Below are positions 32,370-62,371 of a stretch of 64,000 nt of DNA, piece after piece. A program made the translations under genes and the position numbers. Positions within the stretch are counted from its first letter, which is position 1; each line of letters begins with the position of its first letter. The stretch lies in NCBI GenBank assembly GCA_000004985.1, contig GG738883.1. One strand, given 5' to 3'. Source of the DNA: Naegleria gruberi. Taxonomy: Eukaryota. Below the pieces are notes generated by a model. That model was not told the DNA's origin. It did no database searches and saw only the letters and a program-made list of their open reading frames with translations.

Positions 32370-33908
32370 TTAACAAATGATACAATCACTTTCCTTCTTG
32401 GTTTTTTTAGACGACTGAGAAACTTGTGGTGAAGCTAATTCTCGTTCCTGTCTCTGCTTATTGAGCTCTCTCAATTGTGATGCTTGATTCGCGTAGGCGT
32501 TCGCTCCATGCTTTTTCGTTGTATTAGAACCAGGTTTCTTTTCTCTAATTGTTGGCACATTTGCATATGGAATGCTTGGATCCTGTTCGAGAGGAGTTTG
32601 AACTACCCTAGGAGATGTTTGAGGATTATTAGCTTGTTGCTGAGGTTGTTGAAATTGTGGATTAAATTGTTGCTGTTGTTGAGGGTGAGGATGTGCCTGA
32701 GGTTGTCTTGTTTGTTGCTGTTGTTCATGCATCATTTCTTGCTGATAGGCCATCTCCTCTTCTCTTTGAAGTTGAAGAGCTAGTTGTAAATCTTCATCGT
32801 GTTGCTTACTATCCACAACTGGTGCTTTTTCCTGTTGATAATATTCATAGTTTTGAGAGTGAGTTTCCAGCATTCGGAATGGTGTAAAATCTCCCAAATA
32901 ATATTGTTGATCTTCTCCATGAATTGTCAAATTTTCCCAGACAATGTTCGTTTCATTTAGGAGAGTCTCATTTGTACAGAGTGTGAGGATTGCTTCCTGT
33001 ATTTTACAAATTACTGAAAAGTGATTATTTCTGAAAAAGATGGCAATCTTTCTATCAGCCAAACTATTGTGAAGGGATGCCAAACCATATTGTGTCAATT
33101 GTGATGGTGAGTTGGTAAGGAAAGTTTGAATGAGTGATCCTTGTGAAATAATATCATTCTTTTGATCGACTGGTAATCTGGTGACCATTTCTTCTGGAGT
33201 TTTCAATTCTGTCAAATCAACGTGAGCAGATAGAATTTGCTCAATAACTTTTCCACTCTTTTTCATTTGCTCTTCTGCATTGATAAGTTCATTCATTAAA
33301 ACAATCTTTTCGACTGCTTGATCGTAGGAGAGACTTTTGAGCGCTTTAAATGTTTCAAGCTCAGATTCCGAATCTACAAGCCATCCGTGCATTAATTTGA
33401 TATTGAAAAAGTTGAACACAGACAAGTCACAAGTTGTAAATCCATGAACTCCTTCAGTAAATTGTACATTGACATCGAGACCATGTTTGAGTTTTGGAAC
33501 TGAGTCTAGAGCTGCTTGTAACATCTTTCCCTTCTCTCCATCAGTATCTGATTTACTATATTTAAGATTGTATGTATCCAACATGGATTGGGCAAGAATC
33601 TGCACAAGACTTTCATTTGTAATAAATCCATTCACAATGAAATTGTCAATAGCACTCACATCACCTCCTCTCAATGAAATTATATTAAATACAGCAATCA
33701 GAGGACAAGGACCATTTAAATTCTGCAGAACGATCGGAGTTCTTCTCTCTCCAATCAAGACTCGTTTTACTCTGTACTTTTCTATAGTTCCTTCCTCATC
33801 AACATCCTTTGCTGCTAATTGAATTGTATCTCCTTCTTCCATATTTACAAATGTTGCTTCTTCCGATTGTTGTTGTTGTTCTTCTTGATTATTTGTATGA
33901 TCGTCCAT
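32370..33908 (-). CDS. MINDY-family (FAM63/DUF544) deubiquitinase.
   Basis: RRTPIVLQNLNGPCPLIAVFNIISL matches the MINDY catalytic-Cys block (TPILLQNENGPCPLLAI). Downstream HGWLVD and NNHFSV blocks are present. Q-rich C-terminus ending ...SDCIIC. Confidence 0.75.
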   Translation of the reverse strand: MDDHTNNQEEQQQQSEEATFVNMEEGDTIQLAAKDVDEEGTIEKYRVKRVLIGERRTPIVLQNLNGPCPLIAVFNIISLRGGDVSAIDNFIVNGFITNESLVQILAQSMLDTYNLKYSKSDTDGEKGKMLQAALDSVPKLKHGLDVNVQFTEGVHGFTTCDLSVFNFFNIKLMHGWLVDSESELETFKALKSLSYDQAVEKIVLMNELINAEEQMKKSGKVIEQILSAHVDLTELKTPEEMVTRLPVDQKNDIISQGSLIQTFLTNSPSQLTQYGLASLHNSLADRKIAIFFRNNHFSVICKIQEAILTLCTNETLLNETNIVWENLTIHGEDQQYYLGDFTPFRMLETHSQNYEYYQQEKAPVVDSKQHDEDLQLALQLQREEEMAYQQEMMHEQQQQTRQPQAHPHPQQQQQFNPQFQQPQQQANNPQTSPRVVQTPLEQDPSIPYANVPTIREKKPGSNTTKKHGANAYANQASQLRELNKQRQERELASPQVSQSSKKTKKESDCIIC

Positions 33909-34828: not shown

Positions 34829-36265
34829 ATGTCACAACATCAAGACAAAGAAACTATGCAACAATGTGCTCCATCACATGGTGACAATGGTTCGGAAGAG
34901 TTTATTTCGGTTGATGAAGTCAATAAAGCTTCAGAATCAAGTGCTTCCGATTCAATGATCATGGATGACAAACAAGTGAATTCTGACGAAAATGCTGCAA
35001 TTTATGAGAAGAAAATTCCAAAAGCTTTAATCGAGTTGAAGAAAATATTTTCTGATGATTTTGATTTTGAAGTGTTGAAGAATACGTATGGATTGAGTAA
35101 GAATGAGGCTCTGGTTGAGGGGATTGAAAAGGTAATTGTACAGGAAGGGGAAGGATTGGAAGCAAAACCAGGTTCTATCATTAGATGTAAGTGAAAGAAT
35201 TGAGTTTTTATTTGAATAATATAATTGAACATTCGAATAATAATAGTTTTGGAAGCCTGTGTAGTATTTTTTAAAAGAAATGAATTTAGTGATTGGGAAT
35301 TTCTTATTAGTTCTAATACATTGCTTCAGGAAAATAGATTGAAATTGAATAAGGTTCCACCAGTATTTTTCAAATGTATTCACACTCTCAAGTTGGGTGA
35401 GCGAGCCTTTTTTAAAATTCATAAGGATTTGTATCCAGAGTTGAAGGTTACTCGTTTGGATCCAGTTCAGGATGATGTGGAAACTACAAAATTAATTGAC
35501 CTTCTTAAATGCCACGATTATTATGGAGTTCAATATATCAGCATTACACATTTGGAATTGAAGGAGGCACCTTCACCAAAGGCATCCTTTGAAGAACATC
35601 TCGAGCAAATCAGTAAGAAGAGACTTGAAGGAAATGTGCTCTTTAAGGAATGCTCATTTGCTAAAGCATTGAAAACATACAATACTGGAATTATTTTCGT
35701 TAATGAGGCCAAGTTAGATGATGGTAAAATTGATGAACAAAAGGCAATACTGAAAGAAGAACGTATCAAGCTCTTAACCAATATTGTCAGATGCCAAAAC
35801 TCACTTAACAATGAAAAGAATCACAAGCTATGCCTTGATACTTGTGACAAGATTCTCTTCTACGAGCCAGAAAACCACAATGCATTCTATTTTAAAGCCA
35901 AAACTTACAATACACTCGACGATTATTCAAGAGGTCTTGAATGTATGGAAAAGGCAAAACACTATTTTTCCACTTACCAACAAAAGAATAGCAGTGATCC
36001 AATTCAACAAAAGAAGGACGCTGAACTGAAAAGCAGAATGGAAATTATTGAAAGGCAATTACTCAAAAAGAAGAAACTCCAAGAAGTACAGGACAATAAG
36101 CTTATGAAATCCAAAATGACTAACATGTTCTCTGAGGAACTCTATGCTGATACAGAACCATATGATGAGGAAGAGTATTGGAGAAAACAGCAAGAGGAAG
36201 ATGAAAGACTGGGCCGTAAGCCATGGTTCATGTCAGATGGCACCATTCACTATCAACAATTGTAA
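34829..36265 (+). CDS. FKBP-like + TPR protein (AIP/FKBP38-like). Proposed join: 34829..35186, 60-nt intron 35187..35246, 35247..36265.
   Basis: Exon1 ends ...VIVQEGEGLEAKPGSIIR, resembling the start of an FKBP domain. GTAAGT lies directly at the ORF end. The only in-frame acceptor (TAATAG at 35246) continues into the 3' ORF, which carries TPR-like repeats (LEGNVLFKECSFAKALKTYNTGI...). The FKBP part is degenerate, so the join is tentative. Confidence 0.5.
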
Positions 36266-37479: not shown

Positions 37480-38961
37480 CTAAAAGACAACGCCATCTTT
37501 TTTTGCCCTTTGGACAACTTGTGCCATTTGCTTATCCTTTTCTTGTGTGGCAGCTTTGAATTTTTCTTGTTCATAACTAGATTTGAGATCTGAGGGAGAA
37601 ATGGTAACTAATCTTCCATATTCAAAGATTTCTTCCTTAATTTTGGTGACATTTTTGTAAACACGAGCATTTTCAAGAGATTCTAATCTTGAATTGACTA
37701 AGGTGGACAAGTTGTAAGAAAGAGCTTCGGATTTTTCCTTCAAAAAAGCTTGATCATTGGAAGTGAGGTATTTAAGTGATTTGAACATTTCAGCATTGAT
37801 TCGTTTGGTTTCTTCCAACAAGGTAGCATTGAATCTTCCATATTCGAACGTGTGTATTTCCAAGCTATTTCTCTCAATCGACACAGAGACAATATAAAGT
37901 ACTTGTTCAATCTCATTCACAACCATTTTACAATTTGCCGAGCTCACAAATAATGGACCCATTGAAAACAATTGAGACCCAGAACCCAAATGTGAAATGC
38001 AAATTGAAGACAATGGTCCAGGACTAACTAAACTGAAAACCAGACCTCTTTTTCTATCAAGTGCAAATGTGGAAACTAATTCTCCGTCCTCCCTCAATGA
38101 AAAAGCATGTAGAATTGCATGAGTACCATTCTCCAATTTTGCACCGCTCTCATCAATCATCTTAATATGGGTACACTCATTGGAACTTCCAAGATTCATT
38201 CCACCATTCAAAGATGGAAAGAGAAATCTCTCTCTATAATGAGCCAATTGAAAATTGTGAAATTTTAAGAATTGTTTCGACTCTAAAGAAATGAAATTCT
38301 TTGCATCATTAATTTCACTTCCATTTGGATGATAGCATTCTGAAATAGTTCCATCCAGATTGACTCCACAAATGATTCCAGATTCTTCCTTAATACAAAT
38401 TCCATTCACACAATTCTCGTCGTGGCCAATCCAAGAAACTTGACCTTTCAAATCCAATTTTACAATGGTTGCTGGTTTGGTGGATTGATCGGAAAAATCA
38501 TTCAGTAAAACAACAAGTGAATTGTCCACTGAAGAATACTCAATTTGTCTAACGAACACTCTAGTTTCGTCCAAATTGTTTCCAAACATTGTTTCAGATG
38601 GATTTTGTGAAAGAATTTGCTCTTTCAAATTGAATGAATGGACAACTTCCAATGTCGAAGCTGATGATGTATAATTTTCCATATTGAAAACCAAAACTTG
38701 ACCTGTTTTTGCATTCACACAAAACAATTCACTTTTTACCAAACATGGAAGGAATGGAAAACAACCTTCATGTGAAAGAATTGAATTGCTCGGTAAGGAA
38801 TGAGCAATTGTAGAAACATATCCAAGACCTACTTGTCCATTCTGTTGATCAGCACACTGATTCTTATGAAATCTGGTTGGATTAAATACCAAATATGGAA
38901 ATTTATCGTTTGGATACACTTGAGAATTGTGGATACTAAATTGGCTGATTAGCTTGTCCAT
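37480..38961 (-). CDS. Hypothetical protein; paralog of the divergently transcribed neighbour 39212..40474.
   Basis: Shares collinear blocks with its neighbour: NPTRFHK / NPRFHK; FCVNAKTG / YCVNPVSG; IHTFEYGRF / IHIFNYGYF. Confidence 0.5.
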   Translation of the reverse strand: MDKLISQFSIHNSQVYPNDKFPYLVFNPTRFHKNQCADQQNGQVGLGYVSTIAHSLPSNSILSHEGCFPFLPCLVKSELFCVNAKTGQVLVFNMENYTSSASTLEVVHSFNLKEQILSQNPSETMFGNNLDETRVFVRQIEYSSVDNSLVVLLNDFSDQSTKPATIVKLDLKGQVSWIGHDENCVNGICIKEESGIICGVNLDGTISECYHPNGSEINDAKNFISLESKQFLKFHNFQLAHYRERFLFPSLNGGMNLGSSNECTHIKMIDESGAKLENGTHAILHAFSLREDGELVSTFALDRKRGLVFSLVSPGPLSSICISHLGSGSQLFSMGPLFVSSANCKMVVNEIEQVLYIVSVSIERNSLEIHTFEYGRFNATLLEETKRINAEMFKSLKYLTSNDQAFLKEKSEALSYNLSTLVNSRLESLENARVYKNVTKIKEEIFEYGRLVTISPSDLKSSYEQEKFKAATQEKDKQMAQVVQRAKKDGVVF

Positions 38962-39211
38962 CGTCTTGATTGTATTGATACAATGTTATGAAATCAACAC
39001 GGATTTGATGTGATGAACTTTTTTTTTGATGAGTTTCAAGAGCCATGACAGTTCGAAACTAAACTAATTTCTTAAGTGTCCAGAACACACAATGAACGGA
39101 CACGTTTGCAATCACTGACGCACAGACACACCCACTCACCATAATCCACACAAGAGGTCAAATAAATCAATTTTCAGAGTTTAGTTTTCAAAACCGAAAG
39201 CTCATAAAAAA

Positions 39212-40474
39212 ATGTCTCAAAACCTTTCTTTAACTTTGGCTGGTTGTTTGGTGACTCCAAGTTTGGCAAGTGTTGATTTTGATAATTCGACACGGACATT
39301 GTTGTATTTGTATAAAGGAAAGGTGATTAATGGGAATGTTTCGTCTTTGATTCTTGAAACTAACCCATTGGAATCGAATAATGGCAGTCGAAGGGAAATT
39401 TCTGTCGTTTCGACTGAAAGAATTTTGGCTAATCCACGTTTCCACAAGTATGAACACATTCCAGATCAAATACAACTTTACTATCAAGTACATTCTAAAT
39501 TGAGTGAAAATGTCCTTGTCTATAGAAAAACAGTTCAAGACGAAACTAATCTCTATTCACTTTTGCAAACTCCACAAGATTTGTATTGTGTAAATCCAGT
39601 GAGTGGAGATTATGCAACCTATTCGGATGGTTATGTGAAAATTTATAAGAATGTCAATTATTGGGCGAATTCATGTCGTTTGGAGGAAATTAAGCTTTCG
39701 AATAATGTGTATAGTTTCGGATTTGCAATGTTGCCACAATCTGAAACTTGTCAATTGCCACGAATCTTACTATTTTCAAGAGAGAAATTGAACTATTTTG
39801 AAGGAGAACATTTAATTATGGAAATTCCAATTCCATTCACAGAAGATTGTAAAGTTTCGACTGATTTCAAATTAGGTATCCTATTTATGGCAGATTCAAA
39901 GAAAATTCTAGCCCTCGATATCAATAACAAATTCGAAACTCTATTCAGAATTGATTTGGGATTTTATCTAGTGAAAGGAATGACCATTGATGTGGAGAAG
40001 AAATTATTATTCATTGGTTCGAAACATTTTATTCACATTTTCAATTATGGTTATTTTGAAACAATTGACCCATTACAACAAGAACAATTACAACAATTCT
40101 CAAAGGAATTCATGATGAAAGGTAGATCAATGGATTATCAAGAACAAGTCAAATCCTATTTCAGATCCCTATATAATGATTCCAGTTTGACAGCTGTTCC
40201 TCCAAGTGCACCTTCTACCTATAAGGGAGGTGGCTATTGTGAAATTATTCCACAATTAATTCCATACGTGAATGGTCAATCTGTGTTGCCAACTAGTAAT
40301 ACAAGCCAAACTGCAGTTTCTTCCTCTTCTATTGGTGGTGCAACTTCTGTATCGAATGGTTCATCAGCTCCTGTTGTGAATTACAATAATAATTCTGCAC
40401 AAGTTCAGACAACAACACAAAGAGTTTCTAATCAGCAGCAACAACAAGACACTGATTGTTGTGTTATTCTCTAA
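39212..40474 (+). CDS. Hypothetical protein, paralog of 37480..38961, ending in a CaaX box (CVIL) that predicts geranylgeranylation.
   Basis: Collinear motifs as above; S/Q-rich tail; terminal ...DTDCCVIL*. Confidence 0.5.
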   Translation: MSQNLSLTLAGCLVTPSLASVDFDNSTRTLLYLYKGKVINGNVSSLILETNPLESNNGSRREISVVSTERILANPRFHKYEHIPDQIQLYYQVHSKLSENVLVYRKTVQDETNLYSLLQTPQDLYCVNPVSGDYATYSDGYVKIYKNVNYWANSCRLEEIKLSNNVYSFGFAMLPQSETCQLPRILLFSREKLNYFEGEHLIMEIPIPFTEDCKVSTDFKLGILFMADSKKILALDINNKFETLFRIDLGFYLVKGMTIDVEKKLLFIGSKHFIHIFNYGYFETIDPLQQEQLQQFSKEFMMKGRSMDYQEQVKSYFRSLYNDSSLTAVPPSAPSTYKGGGYCEIIPQLIPYVNGQSVLPTSNTSQTAVSSSSIGGATSVSNGSSAPVVNYNNNSAQVQTTTQRVSNQQQQQDTDCCVIL

Positions 40475-40892: not shown

Positions 40893-41996
40893 ATGGCTCC
40901 ACATAAACCACAAGAATTCACTTCATTGGTTCAAAAGTTGAAGAAAATGGACAAGGCAGAAAGAATTAAATTTTACCGAGAACGTACGAAACACATGGCC
41001 AACAAACAACAAGCTAAGCAACAACAAGATCACCCTCTCGCTAATAACAAGAGAAAGAAAGAATATTATTCTGATGATGATCAAAATGATGATGATGATC
41101 AACATGATGATGATAAACAACAAAGAAAGAAGAGAAAAGAACAAGAAGAACAAAATGATAGAAAGGAAATGTCTGATGACGAATCCGAAGAAGAAACAGA
41201 CGACGATCAAGAATCAGGTGATGATTCTTCTGACTCTGAATGTGATGAACAAGAAGAAGAATTACAAGAAGAACAACATGAAGAGCAACAACAAGAGGAA
41301 CCAGAAGTAATAACAATAGATGATGACGAAGAAGATTCTGATGAAGATTCTGATGAAGAAGATTCCGATGAAGAAGAAACCGACAAAGACCAAGAATCAA
41401 TCGACGCCTCTTCTGAATCAGACAATGATGATGACAATGATGAACTGAGACGATTTTTCCATAGACACTGGCGCGGCTCCAAAGCACAATTTGTCAGAGA
41501 TTATGGACCTGAGAATGTTGATGCTTCAATTTTTTGCAGATGGTTGAGTAGAAATATTAAGGTCAGCTGGACAAGCTCCTTTGTTAGAAAATACATGGAA
41601 GCATTGAGCCAGACTCAAGCTACTGAAGCACTTGCTCACGATGAAGAACATTCAGAGTCAGAAGAGGATAGAGACGAAATGTCTGACGATCAAGCAGAAG
41701 AATGGAATGTTGTAAACGATGTAGAGGTGCCAGCGGAACCAGAAATAATAATAATAGATGATGATGATGATGAAGAAGAAGATCAAAACACAGAGGTACA
41801 TTATTCTCAAGAACAAGAAGAGATGGATAATTGCTTAACAGAACAAACTGAGTACCTCATGAATCATGAGAAACAAGGTGATTGTATGCAAGACGAAGAA
41901 GAAATCATTCCTGTAATAGAATGCAATCAAGCCAAGAAAGGAATCATGTTATATCCTCCATCAACACTTCCAAATGGCATACCTTATCACAGATAG
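40893..41996 (+). CDS. Highly acidic (D/E/S-rich) protein with a basic N-terminus and a conserved C-terminal motif.
   Basis: 367 aa; ends ...IECNQAKKGIMLYPPSTLPNGIPYHR, a motif shared with the downstream gene. Confidence 0.5.
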   Translation: MAPHKPQEFTSLVQKLKKMDKAERIKFYRERTKHMANKQQAKQQQDHPLANNKRKKEYYSDDDQNDDDDQHDDDKQQRKKRKEQEEQNDRKEMSDDESEEETDDDQESGDDSSDSECDEQEEELQEEQHEEQQQEEPEVITIDDDEEDSDEDSDEEDSDEEETDKDQESIDASSESDNDDDNDELRRFFHRHWRGSKAQFVRDYGPENVDASIFCRWLSRNIKVSWTSSFVRKYMEALSQTQATEALAHDEEHSESEEDRDEMSDDQAEEWNVVNDVEVPAEPEIIIIDDDDDEEEDQNTEVHYSQEQEEMDNCLTEQTEYLMNHEKQGDCMQDEEEIIPVIECNQAKKGIMLYPPSTLPNGIPYHR

Positions 41997-42174
41997 ATTC
42001 ATCTCTGAGATATTTTAAATATCTTGTAAATTAATGTACATAAACTCTTTTAGATTCCTTCTTCAACACCTTTTGAATACAGTACAAATTGAGAAAACCC
42101 AACTTGTTTGTAATTATCAAACAAATTATATATTTTTAGAAGAAAAAAAATCCCTCACAACAACCACTAAGGGA

Positions 42175-42582
42175 ATGGACAAGAATGCAGGAGGGAAAAT
42201 TTTGAATGAAGAACACAAAGAGGAAGCAGAAAAAATTAATACTTCGGAAGGTAGTGAAGAAAACAAACTAGAAGGAATGAACAAGAGAAAGAATTTGGAT
42301 TTTTATCAGCAAAAGACAAAGAAGAGAAAAGAATCCAAAAAAGACACAGATGATGATGAAGCTAGAGAGGAAACCAATAACAACACGCATAACCATGTAA
42401 TTAATGCAAATGAAGAGGATGAAGAATGTGTGAATGATAACAAAATTGGAGGTAATTTCGAAGAAGAACCAAAAGATAGCACTTCTCAGTTGAAAGAAGT
42501 TACATGTCCTCCACCACATCTTCCAAATGGATTGTCCTATAACAGAAATATACCAATAACTATTAGGGACATTCCAATTTAA
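42175..42582 (+). CDS. Small acidic protein, tandem paralog of 40893..41996, sharing the C-terminal PPxxLPNG(I/L)xY(H/N)R motif.
   Basis: ORF 42034..42582; in-frame ATG at 42175. Ends ...VTCPPPHLPNGLSYNRNIPI... Confidence 0.4.
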   Translation: MDKNAGGKILNEEHKEEAEKINTSEGSEENKLEGMNKRKNLDFYQQKTKKRKESKKDTDDDEAREETNNNTHNHVINANEEDEECVNDNKIGGNFEEEPKDSTSQLKEVTCPPPHLPNGLSYNRNIPITIRDIPI

Positions 42583-42766: not shown

Positions 42767-43922
42767 TTACATAATTGAACACTTTTTTCCACTGTTGTTC
42801 CTTCTATATTTTTCTAAAATATTTGAGTCTTGTACAATGATTGTTTGTAATAGTTGTAAATCATCAGGTGAGAAGCTTTTCGACATTTTCATACATTCAT
42901 TAAATACTAAATCACTCTTCAACTTGTCCTGCGCAGATGCTTCAATAATTCTTGTGTTTTTCAATTGGAATCGAGTAATAATTTGGTTAATTTCATTCTT
43001 ACAATCAGTAATGGAAATTTGAATTTCTGTTTGTGGAATATCAATCTTGTTAATAACGAAAACCATGGGTAATCCAGCATTTTCGTTAATGTTCAAAATT
43101 TTCTTTACCATGCCATTTAAATTTTTCAAGGATTCACTGTTATCCAGAGAGCAGACCAGTATGAAACTCATTGCATCTCTAATATAACCATCTCTTAATG
43201 CTGCAAATTCCTCCTGACCAGCTGTTATTGAGCCATTGCATATTTATTTTCAATGGAATTCCAATAAAAATATGATATTGTACTTACCAGTATCCAGAAT
43301 TTCAGCAAAGACAGGTGCCCCATCAACAGAAACTTCCTTCCTATACGAATCCTCCAGGGTTGGATCATATAAACTAACAAATACACCCTGTATAAATTGA
43401 ATAGTCAAGGCTGTTTTACCAACCCTTGCTGCATATTTCAATTTAAATTTCACACCAAATAACAATTCAATAATAATTTTCAATAACATTTTAAATATTG
43501 AATAACATTCCAAATGATTACAAACCTTCTCCCATAATGACCATTTTAATAATATCCTTTTCCCAAACACTCTTTGAACTCTTCACTGCAGATTTAATAA
43601 ACCTCATCAATAACAGTTTCCTCCTCAAAACATTCTTTCTAATCATTTCCTCTTTCAATTTGTTTAATTCTTCCCCCAGTGATGCATTCGTTCCTAAATC
43701 CACTTGAAATAATTTCCACCAAAATTCCTCCATCAAATACTTGTTAGTTTCTTTGCAGAGTTTGGAATTAAGTGCTTGAAACTTGATAATGCTCAGTGCA
43801 CATGCCTTCCGAACCGAAAACTCAACTTGTTTAATATCCGAAGGAATTAGAAAAGAGAGAATATGTCGATGTATTTCGTTGGGTAATGAGAGAAAGGCTG
43901 ATGATGATTGCTTAGTAGACAT
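42767..43922 (-). CDS. F-box + Ras-family small GTPase fusion with a C-terminal CaaX box (CSIM). Join: exon1 43922..43526, intron 43525..43429 (GTTTGT...TATGCAG), exon2 43428..43288, intron 43287..43222 (GTAAGT...AACAG), exon3 43221..42767.
   Basis: N-terminus [33 protein letters not shown] is an F-box. The spliced GTPase reads ...KMVIMGEG|[48 protein letters not shown]|[14 protein letters not shown]...FVINKID...EASAQD...KKCSIM*. G1 (GEARVGKT) is completed across intron 1 and G3 (DTAGQE) across intron 2. The Ras effector loop [11 protein letters not shown] is present. Confidence 0.65.
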
Positions 43923-61109: not shown

Positions 61110-61354
61110 TTTTATTTGTGAATTTGTTGGATATTTGGTTAGTCAAATCTAGCTATTTATTTCGATGACCTGACTTCATGCAAATGCTAGAACATCCAAT
61201 TCGAGTGGAAATTCGAATCCTGAGCGTACGCATTAATCTCCAGCTCCTGATACTTTACAATTTCAGTTCATTAAAGTTGCTTGCAGCTGAATAAGTTTCT
61301 TTATGCTCAGTGGCAAATATTGATCTAATTGTTACAATTTCAAATAGTTTTGGA

Positions 61355-62371
61355 ATGGGTGAATTATTTAAAAAAATGAAATTGTTGGAACTGCCAGACG
61401 AAATTATTTTTCATATTTTGGGATATTGTTGTGTAGCAGCAGAAAATCATCATGAACCTCTACTCCGAAATCCATATGTTAGACAAATGGCCAAAATACA
61501 ATCTATCAACAAGGATTTTTCAAGAAGAATTAAAAGTTATTCTGATACGTTTTGGAAGAGTCTTTTAGTGGATGAATTTGGAGCGAATAAGCAATTTATT
61601 AAATTAATAGATGATCAAATAACAGGTACTTTGCAAAATAAGAAGATTTCACTGAAGAGAAGAGCACTCTTGTTGAGAAAATTATTTAGTAGGAATTTCA
61701 AAATTAATACCAATAAGCAACCTGGTTATTCCGAATGTAAATTTTGTGTTTCTGGACCTGCTAATACTGGTAAAACTTGTTTAACCACAAAATACATAAC
61801 AGGTGAATTTCCACAAGTTACAGATCCAACAATAGAAGACAGCTACAGAAAGATGATACGAGTAGATGAATATTCACACCTTTTGGATATTTTGGACACG
61901 GCTGGGCAAGAGGAATATAAAGCAATGAGAGATGGATATATTGCAACATCACAAGCTTTTGTAATTACTGCAAGTTTAGATCTTATTCCAACAGAATGTA
62001 CACAATATTACGAGGAATTATTGGCTCAAATTATAAGCATTAAGGATTGGAAAGGAGTTGGATGTTATCATCCAATGGTTTTTGTAGTGAACAAGTCTGA
62101 TTTAGAACAAGAGGAAAGAAAGTCAACATTTGAGGAATGGAAAACATTTTTGAATTCAGTTATAGAGAGATATGGAATAATGAATTCTGAGATTATTGAA
62201 ACCAGTGCCAAATCCAATATTAATGTTTCAAAAATATTTGAATTAGGTATTAGAATGTTTCTACATTTTCATTTTAGTCACGTTTTTTGGTTTCAACAAG
62301 TAATTGAATTGGATACAAAAGCTTTTAGTCACACAGAAAACAAATCCGAAAAGAAATGTTTACTACAATAA
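61355..62371 (+). CDS. F-box + Ras-family small GTPase fusion with CaaX box (CLLQ); single exon; paralog of 42767..43922.
   Basis: LELPDEIIFHILGYC (F-box), linker ...KRRALLLRKLFSR..., then a complete GTPase: GPANTGKT (G1), TDPTIEDSYRKMIRVDE (switch I), DTAGQEEY (G3), VNKSDL (G4), ETSAKS (G5), and terminal KKCLLQ*. Track ORF 61310 starts at GTG; first ATG at 61355. Confidence 0.7.
   Translation: MGELFKKMKLLELPDEIIFHILGYCCVAAENHHEPLLRNPYVRQMAKIQSINKDFSRRIKSYSDTFWKSLLVDEFGANKQFIKLIDDQITGTLQNKKISLKRRALLLRKLFSRNFKINTNKQPGYSECKFCVSGPANTGKTCLTTKYITGEFPQVTDPTIEDSYRKMIRVDEYSHLLDILDTAGQEEYKAMRDGYIATSQAFVITASLDLIPTECTQYYEELLAQIISIKDWKGVGCYHPMVFVVNKSDLEQEERKSTFEEWKTFLNSVIERYGIMNSEIIETSAKSNINVSKIFELGIRMFLHFHFSHVFWFQQVIELDTKAFSHTENKSEKKCLLQ

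What the first reader, a model, noticed from the sequence alone, without database searches (positions are those of the whole stretch)
37480..40474. Head-to-head paralog pair of an unrecognised protein family; one copy is CaaL-prenylated
Genes 37480..38961 (-) and 39212..40474 (+) share a 250-bp bidirectional promoter and share collinear motifs (NP[T]RFHK, [FY]CVN..[TS]G, IH.F.YG.F). I cannot assign either to a known domain. Only the plus-strand copy ends in CCVIL, a geranylgeranylation box, so the pair may be soluble and membrane-anchored versions of one function. The divergent arrangement suggests an inverted duplication.
Basis: seen in the sequence. Interest (0 to 1): 0.5.

Follow-up and report, generated by a model that had tools for sequence, protein, structure and literature searches.

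The report
Conserved Naegleria orphan gene pair, one lipid-anchored
Two neighbouring, back-to-back genes of the amoeba Naegleria gruberi encode proteins with no recognisable relatives; one carries a conserved lipid-anchor signal at its end, but the idea that the two are duplicated copies of each other is not supported by any statistical test.

Summary
The window is Naegleria gruberi. Gene A is 37480..38961(-), 493 aa, NAEGRDRAFT_70233. Gene B is 39212..40474(+), 420 aa, NAEGRDRAFT_50837, ending DCCVIL. Their start codons are 250 bp apart.

Neither protein matches Pfam or any PDB sequence. An exhaustive HMMER search with the B profile against 1.84 billion representatives found only B and one ortholog. 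That ortholog lies on an unnamed Logan contig, L001, where the A and B orthologs are again head-to-head and B' ends DCCNIM. So the pairing and the CC-aaX box are conserved, although the predicted prenyl type is not (X = L versus M).

The paralogy claim fails. BLASTP, Smith-Waterman shuffles, hhalign, reciprocal profile HMMs, a collinear-motif chain test and a DNA repeat search all stay within chance. Unrelated ORFs from the same window score as high against each profile as the partner does.

The AlphaFold models are poor (pLDDT about 40), but both look like generic beta-propellers followed by helices.

Best reading: two lineage-restricted genes, probably working together. B is probably a propeller scaffold held on the cytosolic face of a membrane by a prenyl group, and possibly a palmitoyl group, at the end of a roughly 95-residue disordered linker. 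It is modestly interesting and not a new kind of system.

The parts
37480..38961 (-). Gene A (NAEGRDRAFT_70233, D2VMR6), 493 aa. Beta-rich domain at about residues 78-376, with a highly conserved block DRKRGL.FS.V.PGPLSSICI.HLGS.SQLF.MGPLFVSS at 302-341. Long C-terminal helices follow at about 379-488. No lipidation signal.
38962..39211 (.). 250-bp spacer between the two divergent start codons. It is presumed to hold the promoter(s) of both genes.
   Evidence: Coordinates. Promoter function is inferred only. The alignment with the L001 spacer is uninformative.
39212..40177 (+). Gene B (NAEGRDRAFT_50837, D2VMR7), residues 1-322. Beta-rich, propeller-like domain to about residue 280, then two helices at about 287-322. 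Residues 1-70 are not conserved in the ortholog contig.
40178..40456 (+). Gene B residues 323-415. S/T/Q/N-rich, predicted disordered linker. It contains one conserved short motif, IIPQL.PYVN, at residues 345-354.
   Evidence: Composition S17 Q11 T10 V9 N8 out of 93. pLDDT 22-30 and no secondary structure. Conservation of IIPQL.PYVN inside an otherwise gapped region.
40457..40474 (+). Codons for the CC-aaX lipidation box CCVIL (residues 416-420, 40457-40471) plus the stop codon TAA (40472-40474). Cys417 is the predicted prenyl acceptor. Cys416 is a candidate palmitoylation site. The ortholog has the equivalent CCNIM, and the Asp just upstream (D415, last linker residue) is also conserved.

Best explanation
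These are two distinct protein-coding genes, restricted to Naegleria gruberi and at least one relative, and kept as a divergent neighbour pair. By sequence they are not detectably related to each other.

Each protein most likely folds into a beta-propeller-type domain followed by helices. B then continues into a disordered linker of about 95 residues rich in Ser, Thr, Gln and Asn, and ends in D-C-C-a-a-X.

Proposed mechanism, all of it inferred:
- B is prenylated in the cytosol on Cys417. The X residue is Leu in N. gruberi, which predicts GGTase-I. It is Met in the relative, which predicts FTase.
- B is then trimmed and carboxymethylated on the ER, as CaaX proteins usually are.
- B is probably palmitoylated on the adjacent Cys416.
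- The propeller is therefore held on the cytosolic face of a membrane at the end of a long flexible leash, where it acts as a protein-binding platform.
- A has a propeller, a long helical tail and no lipid signal. It is the obvious candidate for a soluble partner that is co-expressed with B and recruited by it.

What is shown: the genes exist, they are orphans, the pairing is conserved, the CC-aaX box is conserved, and paralogy is not detectable. What is inferred: the fold, the lipidation, the membrane location and any A-B interaction.
For: - Both ORFs are intact and match the NCBI gene models.
- The orthologs on L001 keep long open frames in a 33% GC genome, which indicates real, constrained genes.
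- The head-to-head arrangement is kept in L001, while the genes downstream of A' (a 7TM-RGS gene and another ORF) have no counterpart anywhere in the 64-kb window, and the window's neighbours have none in L001.
- The tail is DCCVIL in B and DCCNIM in B'. It is conserved at the end of a linker that is otherwise gapped and poorly conserved.
- No window in either protein is hydrophobic enough for a transmembrane segment; the maximum 19-residue Kyte-Doolittle mean is 1.4.
- A farnesyltransferase is a recognised drug target in the genus (PMC7560193, found).
- Other ordinary CaaX proteins lie in the same window: Ras-like GTPases ending CSIM and CLLQ, and a MINDY deubiquitinase ending CIIC.
- From established knowledge: CC-aaX is the dual-lipidation layout of yeast Ras2 (CCIIS), RhoB (CCKVL) and Ykt6 (CCIIM).
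Against: - Both structure models have low confidence (mean pLDDT 39.6 and 39.7, pTM 0.40 and 0.35), so the propeller assignment is tentative and the fold-search hits are generic.
- Only two species are available, so 'conserved' rests on a single comparison.
- Only one flank of the pair could be tested for synteny, because the L001 contig ends 27 bp past B'.
- L001 is imperfect. It has a homopolymer frameshift in A', and the N-terminal parts of both genes lack an ATG or contain in-frame TGA codons.
- There is no experimental or expression data. No paper mentions either gene.
- Nothing tests an A-B interaction.
- B's N-terminus, LSLTLAGCLVTPSLA, is the most hydrophobic stretch in the protein and could be read as a weak signal peptide. 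That would be incompatible with cytosolic prenylation.
Confidence: 0.5

Rival explanations
1. A and B are ancient paralogs produced by an inverted duplication and have diverged beyond ordinary detection. One copy later acquired a linker and a CaaX box, giving soluble and anchored versions of one function.
For: - The three short motifs are present and collinear, and the spacing between motifs 1 and 2 is similar in the two proteins (53 versus 51 residues).
- Motifs 2 and 3 fall in equivalent predicted secondary-structure contexts: a beta-hairpin, and the last strand before the helices.
- Both models look like a propeller followed by helices.
- A semi-global alignment with cheap gaps gives z = 2.8, reached by 4 of 300 shuffles.
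- The best 10-residue window is reached by 10 of 300 shuffles.
Against: - BLASTP E is 0.38 and the local Smith-Waterman score is reached by 109 of 300 shuffles.
- The motif chain is reached by 28 of 200 shuffles, and reversed B scores higher.
- The exhaustive B-profile search did not retrieve A at E <= 0.001.
- Reciprocal profile scores are 0.3 and -2.5 bits, no better than unrelated ORFs in the window such as a RhoGAP at 3.2 bits.
- There is no DNA inverted repeat.
- Motifs 1 and 2 are eroded in the orthologs.
- B's motif 3 matches a second FEYGRL copy at A residue 446, inside the helical tail, better than it matches the 'collinear' copy (8 of 12 identical). This breaks the collinearity.
- The beta-propeller is one of the commonest eukaryotic folds, so sharing it says little about descent.
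Confidence: 0.15
2. The two genes are functionally unrelated neighbours. A divergent orientation with a short spacer is common in this compact genome, and adjacency survived in the relative simply because a target of 250-400 bp is rarely hit by rearrangements.
For: - The window is gene-dense, with 29 ORFs of 250 aa or more in 64 kb on both strands, so about a quarter of adjacent pairs would be divergent by chance.
- Only one other genome is available.
- Nothing tests co-expression or interaction.
Against: - The only flank that could be tested has been rearranged between the two organisms, while the pair stayed together.
- Both genes have the same extremely narrow phylogenetic distribution, each with exactly one homolog, and those homologs are on the same contig.
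Confidence: 0.25
3. B is a secreted or cell-surface glycoprotein with an N-terminal signal peptide, an extracellular propeller and a mucin-like Ser/Thr-rich stalk. On this reading the terminal CCVIL is not a prenylation site.
For: - The most hydrophobic 11-residue window in B is at residues 5-15 (LSLTLAGCLVT, mean Kyte-Doolittle 1.9), followed by a possible SLA|S cleavage site.
- The linker is rich in Ser, Thr and Asn.
- Several N-x-S/T sequons are present (read directly from the sequence).
Against: - There is no C-terminal hydrophobic segment for a GPI signal or a transmembrane anchor, so a stalk would have nothing to attach to.
- The D-C-C-a-a-X end is conserved, while the N-terminal 70 residues are not conserved in L001.
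- The n-region has no positive charge.
- AF2 places beta-strands in residues 20-41.
Confidence: 0.07

Closest known systems
CaaX-box prenylated proteins with an adjacent upstream Cys (CC-aaX), such as yeast Ras2 (CCIIS), RhoB (CCKVL) and Ykt6 (CCIIM). Examples are recalled from established knowledge.
   Same: The C-terminal C-C-aliphatic-aliphatic-X lies at the very end of a flexible segment. The X residue is Leu or Met, as in GGTase-I and FTase substrates. Both Cys residues are conserved in the ortholog.
   Different: The domain attached is neither a small GTPase nor a longin/SNARE domain. It is an unrecognised beta-rich domain, probably a propeller. The linker is much longer, about 95 residues. 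The modification itself has not been shown.
Heterotrimeric G-protein beta-gamma dimer
   Same: In concept, both are a beta-propeller platform held on the cytosolic membrane face by a C-terminal prenyl group, with helices next to the propeller. Gbeta chains appear among the generic structural hits (rank 8).
   Different: In G-beta-gamma the prenyl group is on a separate small subunit joined by a coiled coil. Here it would be on the same chain as the propeller. Pfam finds no WD40 or GGL signature, and the structural hits are no better to Gbeta than to any other propeller.
Generic WD40, YVTN or PROPPIN-type beta-propellers, for example THOC3, RACK1, E. coli YncE and Atg18
   Different: There is no sequence-level match to any propeller repeat family in Pfam or PDB. 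Sequence identity to the hits is 4-16%. No FRRG motif of the PROPPIN type can be seen in B's sequence (read directly). The models are too poor to count blades.

Membership tests
CaaX prenylation substrates (FTase / GGTase-I) | Cys at position -4 from the C-terminus, followed by two mostly aliphatic residues and an X residue that selects the enzyme | tested here: met
   B ends C-V-I-L and the ortholog ends C-N-I-M. X = Leu predicts GGTase-I and X = Met predicts FTase. That rule comes from established knowledge.
CaaX prenylation substrates (FTase / GGTase-I) | The motif is conserved in orthologs although the flanking sequence is unconstrained | tested here: met
   DCCVIL versus DCCNIM at the end of a gapped, low-identity linker. 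Only one ortholog is available.
CaaX prenylation substrates (FTase / GGTase-I) | A cytosolic protein with no signal peptide or transmembrane segment, so the C-terminus is accessible | tested here: inconclusive
   No TM-grade hydrophobic window exists. Residues 5-15 are mildly hydrophobic. No signal-peptide predictor was available.
CaaX prenylation substrates (FTase / GGTase-I) | An isoprenoid is actually attached to the Cys | not testable with these tools
   This needs metabolic labelling or mass spectrometry.
   Searches are all at chance level. Unrelated ORFs from the window score as high against each profile.
   Only short inverted matches of 14-27 nt were found, scattered and not collinear.
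   Both models are beta-rich and then helical, with generic propeller hits. pLDDT is about 40, and the fold is too common to discriminate.
WD40 / other Pfam beta-propeller repeat families | A profile match to a repeat family at the gathering threshold | tested here: not met
   The only hit is Clathrin_propel for A, at E = 0.2 and 12.4 bits against a cut-off of 21.3. B has no hit.
Heterotrimeric G-protein beta / gamma | WD40 repeats of Gbeta, or a GGL domain of Ggamma, upstream of the CaaX box | tested here: not met
   No Pfam match and no PDB-sequence match.
Ykt6-type CC-aaX SNARE | A longin domain and a SNARE motif upstream of CC-aaX | tested here: not met
   No Pfam or PDB-sequence match. 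The model is all-beta.

The most novel reading that the evidence does not exclude
A and B form a heterolobosean-specific two-subunit membrane platform. B would be a beta-propeller that carries its own dual lipid anchor (prenyl plus palmitoyl) on a long leash, and it would recruit the propeller and coiled-coil protein A. This would be a single-chain analogue of G-beta-gamma-type anchoring, built from two protein families with no detectable relatives elsewhere in 1.8 billion sequence clusters.
Probability: 0.15. Interest if true: 0.45.

Novelty: new member of a known kind. Interest (0 to 1): 0.27.

Why it matters
If B really is prenylated, it adds an unusual cargo to the list of CaaX substrates: a probable beta-propeller on a long disordered leash rather than a small GTPase. 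It also gives two Naegleria 'predicted proteins' a testable localisation and a candidate partner. That would interest people who study Naegleria membrane biology or the evolution of the prenylome. It does not bear on a long-standing open question. The most useful outcome is the negative result: the 'paralog pair / inverted duplication' reading should not be carried forward.

Tried and rejected
- **Paralogy.** Rejected after BLASTP, Smith-Waterman shuffles, hhalign, reciprocal HMMs, a motif-chain permutation test, a best-window permutation test, an empirical null from all 68 stop-to-stop ORFs of 120 aa or more in the window, and a DNA repeat search.
- **Known-family assignment.** Pfam, and PDB sequence searches with single sequences and with profiles, gave nothing.
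- **More homologs.** All three word-indexed searches and the one exhaustive HMMER job returned only the Logan ortholog, plus P0005. P0005 is a 1071-aa bacterial cadherin-repeat protein whose score is the sum of five weak matches of its repeat motif F-S-I-N-S-A-T-G-E-V. I treat it as a repeat artefact.
- **Metagenome scan.** It returned one contig, L002, with prokaryote-looking ORFs and a 65-residue match. I treat it as spurious.
- **Structure prediction.** With two-sequence alignments it gave pLDDT of about 40 for both proteins, so fold searches can only say 'propeller-like'. The afdb50 library was unavailable.
- **Literature.** No paper mentions either locus tag or accession. Two Naegleria papers had no usable supplementary tables.
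- **Heptad test for coiled coils.** The helical tails did not differ from shuffles, so 'coiled coil' is not claimed.
- **TGA as a sense codon in the L001 organism.** I considered this to explain two in-frame TGAs in the conserved N-terminus of B'. I rejected it as unsupported: about 1,380 codons of the three long L001 ORFs contain no TGA, and the contig has at least one homopolymer indel.
Full report
**Source and observation.**
Both ORFs are 100% identical to NCBI 'predicted protein [Naegleria gruberi]' entries on a 371-kb scaffold. Gene A is NAEGRDRAFT_70233 / D2VMR6 and gene B is NAEGRDRAFT_50837 / D2VMR7. The window has 31-37% GC and is gene-dense on both strands.

Gene A is 37480..38961(-), 493 aa. 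Gene B is 39212..40474(+), 420 aa, ending ...QQQQQDTDCCVIL. The start codons are 250 bp apart.

**Are the two proteins related?**
I tested this in several independent ways, and none exceeded chance.
- BLASTP gives a best E of 0.38.
- The local Smith-Waterman score of 42 is reached by 109 of 300 shuffles.
- A purpose-built test scored the best collinear chain of high-scoring 8-residue windows at the profile level. It gave 64, which 28 of 200 column shuffles reached. Reversed B scored 67.5.
- The best single shared window, the IH.F.YG.F motif, is reached by 59 of 300 shuffles at width 8 and by 10 of 300 at width 10.
- Profile HMMs give 0.3 bits for the B profile against A, and -2.5 bits for the A profile against B.
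- Against all 68 stop-to-stop ORFs of 120 aa or more in the window, which form a composition-matched null, a RhoGAP protein outscores A under the B profile, and B is not in the top eight under the A profile.
- The exhaustive HMMER search with the B profile against 1.84 billion cluster representatives did not retrieve A at E <= 0.001.
- There is no inverted repeat at the DNA level.

Two further details weaken the motif argument. Motifs 1 and 2 are eroded in the orthologs: NPTRFHK becomes SSFHSK, FCVNAKTG becomes HCANVKTF, and YCVNPVSG becomes SSVNYLTG. A also has a second FEYGRL copy at residue 446, inside its helical tail, which matches B's motif better than the 'collinear' copy does, at 8 of 12 identities.

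The only weakly positive numbers are a semi-global alignment with z = 2.8 and the width-10 window result. I conclude that paralogy is not supported. It cannot be formally excluded for proteins this diverged.

**What each protein is.**
Neither has a Pfam match. The only hit is Clathrin_propel for A, at E = 0.2 and below threshold. Neither has a PDB-sequence match, whether searched as a single sequence or as a profile.

The word-indexed searches of 5.8 billion proteins found one homolog of A, P0002 at 46% identity, and none of B. P0002 lies on a 5.8-kb Logan contig, L001, from SRA run SRR25266747. Reading that contig shows that the gene divergent from A' is an ortholog of B, 39-42% identical, ending DCCNIM. 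It was then recovered as P0004. The exhaustive search added only a bacterial cadherin-repeat protein, through five summed repeat matches, which I regard as an artefact. A metagenome scan gave only a spurious prokaryotic contig.

So each of A and B is an orphan family with two known members.

**Conserved features.**
1. *The head-to-head arrangement.* It is kept in L001. The genes downstream of A' there (a 7TM-RGS protein and another ORF) have no homolog in the 64-kb window, and the window's neighbours have none in L001. The pair therefore stayed together while at least one flank changed. The other flank cannot be tested because the contig ends 27 bp after B'.
2. *The C-terminal box.* It reads D-C-C-V-I-L against D-C-C-N-I-M, at the end of a linker that is otherwise gapped and weakly conserved. 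The X residue differs (Leu versus Met), so the predicted enzyme, and hence the lipid, is not conserved. Both cysteines are.
3. *A short motif in the linker.* IIPQL.PYVN is conserved within the otherwise disordered region.
4. *A block in A.* Residues 302-341 are about 80% identical between the orthologs.

**Fold.**
AlphaFold2 with two-sequence alignments gave poor models (mean pLDDT 39.6 and 39.7). Only B residues of roughly 160-250 reach 66-81. Both models are runs of short beta-strands followed by helices: A at 379-488 and B at 287-322. B residues 323-415 have no structure.

**Mechanism (inferred).**
The most economical reading is that B is a peripheral membrane protein. Cys417 would be prenylated, the -aaX would be removed and the new end methylated on the ER, and Cys416 would be available for palmitoylation. 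This is the arrangement known from yeast Ras2, RhoB and Ykt6 (established knowledge, not tested here). The S/T/Q/N-rich linker of about 95 residues would let the propeller reach well away from the bilayer.

Prenylation machinery exists in the genus: farnesyltransferase is a drug target in N. fowleri (PMC7560193). The same window also encodes conventional CaaX proteins.

A has no lipidation signal. It shares B's very narrow distribution and its conserved adjacency, which makes it the natural candidate for a co-regulated partner. No data test this.

**Rivals.**
- Cryptic paralogy is discussed above.
- Chance adjacency of unrelated genes is plausible in a compact genome and is only weakly countered by a single comparison.
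- B could be secreted. Its N-terminus LSLTLAGCLVT is the most hydrophobic window in the protein. However, that region is not conserved, there is no C-terminal hydrophobic anchor, and the conserved terminal Cys box would then be unexplained.

**Caveats about L001.**
The contig has a one-base homopolymer frameshift near the end of A'. The C-terminus continues in another frame at 53% identity to A. The conserved N-terminal parts of both genes lack an ATG or contain in-frame TGAs. I attribute this to assembly or sequencing errors or to unrecognised introns, and I could not resolve it. The organism behind L001 is unknown.

**Verdict.**
The coordinates, the orphan status and the CaaX box are confirmed, and the CaaX box and the gene pairing gain support from an ortholog. 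The central interpretation, a paralog pair formed by inverted duplication, is not supported.

What remains is a lineage-restricted, probably co-functional gene pair that includes a probable lipid-anchored propeller protein. This is a new member of the well-known class of CaaX-anchored proteins. It is of modest interest, mainly to Naegleria biologists.

Noticed in passing
window 32370..33908 (-): A 512-aa MINDY-family deubiquitinase (Pfam E = 4.5e-68) whose ORF ends SDCIIC. This is a CaaX-like terminus, so it may be another prenylated non-GTPase in the same window.
   Followed up: partly
window 61310..62371 (+): A 353-aa ORF that combines an N-terminal F-box-like domain with a Ras-family GTPase domain and ends KKCLLQ (a CaaX box). 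This is an unusual F-box-GTPase fusion.
   Followed up: partly
window 42767..43171 (-): A 134-aa ORF that matches the C-terminal half of a Ras-family GTPase and ends KKCSIM. It is probably the last exon of an intron-containing small-GTPase gene.
   Followed up: partly
window 40893..41996 (+) and 42034..42582 (+): Two adjacent ORFs on the same strand, both acidic and low-complexity, with no Pfam match. Both carry the motif PP..LPNG[IL].Y.R near the C-terminus (YPPSTLPNGIPYHR and CPPPHLPNGLSYNR). They may be tandem paralogs or exons of related genes.
   Followed up: no
L001 2490..2650 (+): The A ortholog has a one-base deficit in an A-run (GAGGAATATTT where GAGGAAATATTT would be expected). This truncates the called ORF. 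The conserved C-terminus GRLVT[IL]SPSDL... continues in the +1 frame to a TAA stop. It is either a sequencing error in the Logan contig or a real frameshift.
   Followed up: yes
L001 1000..1380: The distance between the conserved cores of A' and B' is about 300 bp shorter than in N. gruberi. The sequence homologous to B's N-terminus contains two in-frame TGA codons. The codon aligned with A's ATG is TGG. The start codons of both orthologs are therefore unresolved.
   Followed up: partly
window 34829..35194 (+) and 35225..36265 (+): Two consecutive ORFs on the same strand. The second has weak TPR-type Pfam hits (IF140 C-terminal TPR at E = 2e-4 and TTC21 ARM at E = 7e-3, both below threshold). 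They are probably exons of one TPR-containing gene split by a short intron.
   Followed up: no
window 37480..38961 (-), protein residues 372-377 and 446-451: Gene A contains the hexapeptide FEYGR[FL] twice, once at the end of the beta-rich domain and once inside the helical tail. The first copy is kept in the ortholog; the second is only partly kept there (FLHGRL, visible after correcting the L001 frameshift). Its significance is unknown.
   Followed up: partly
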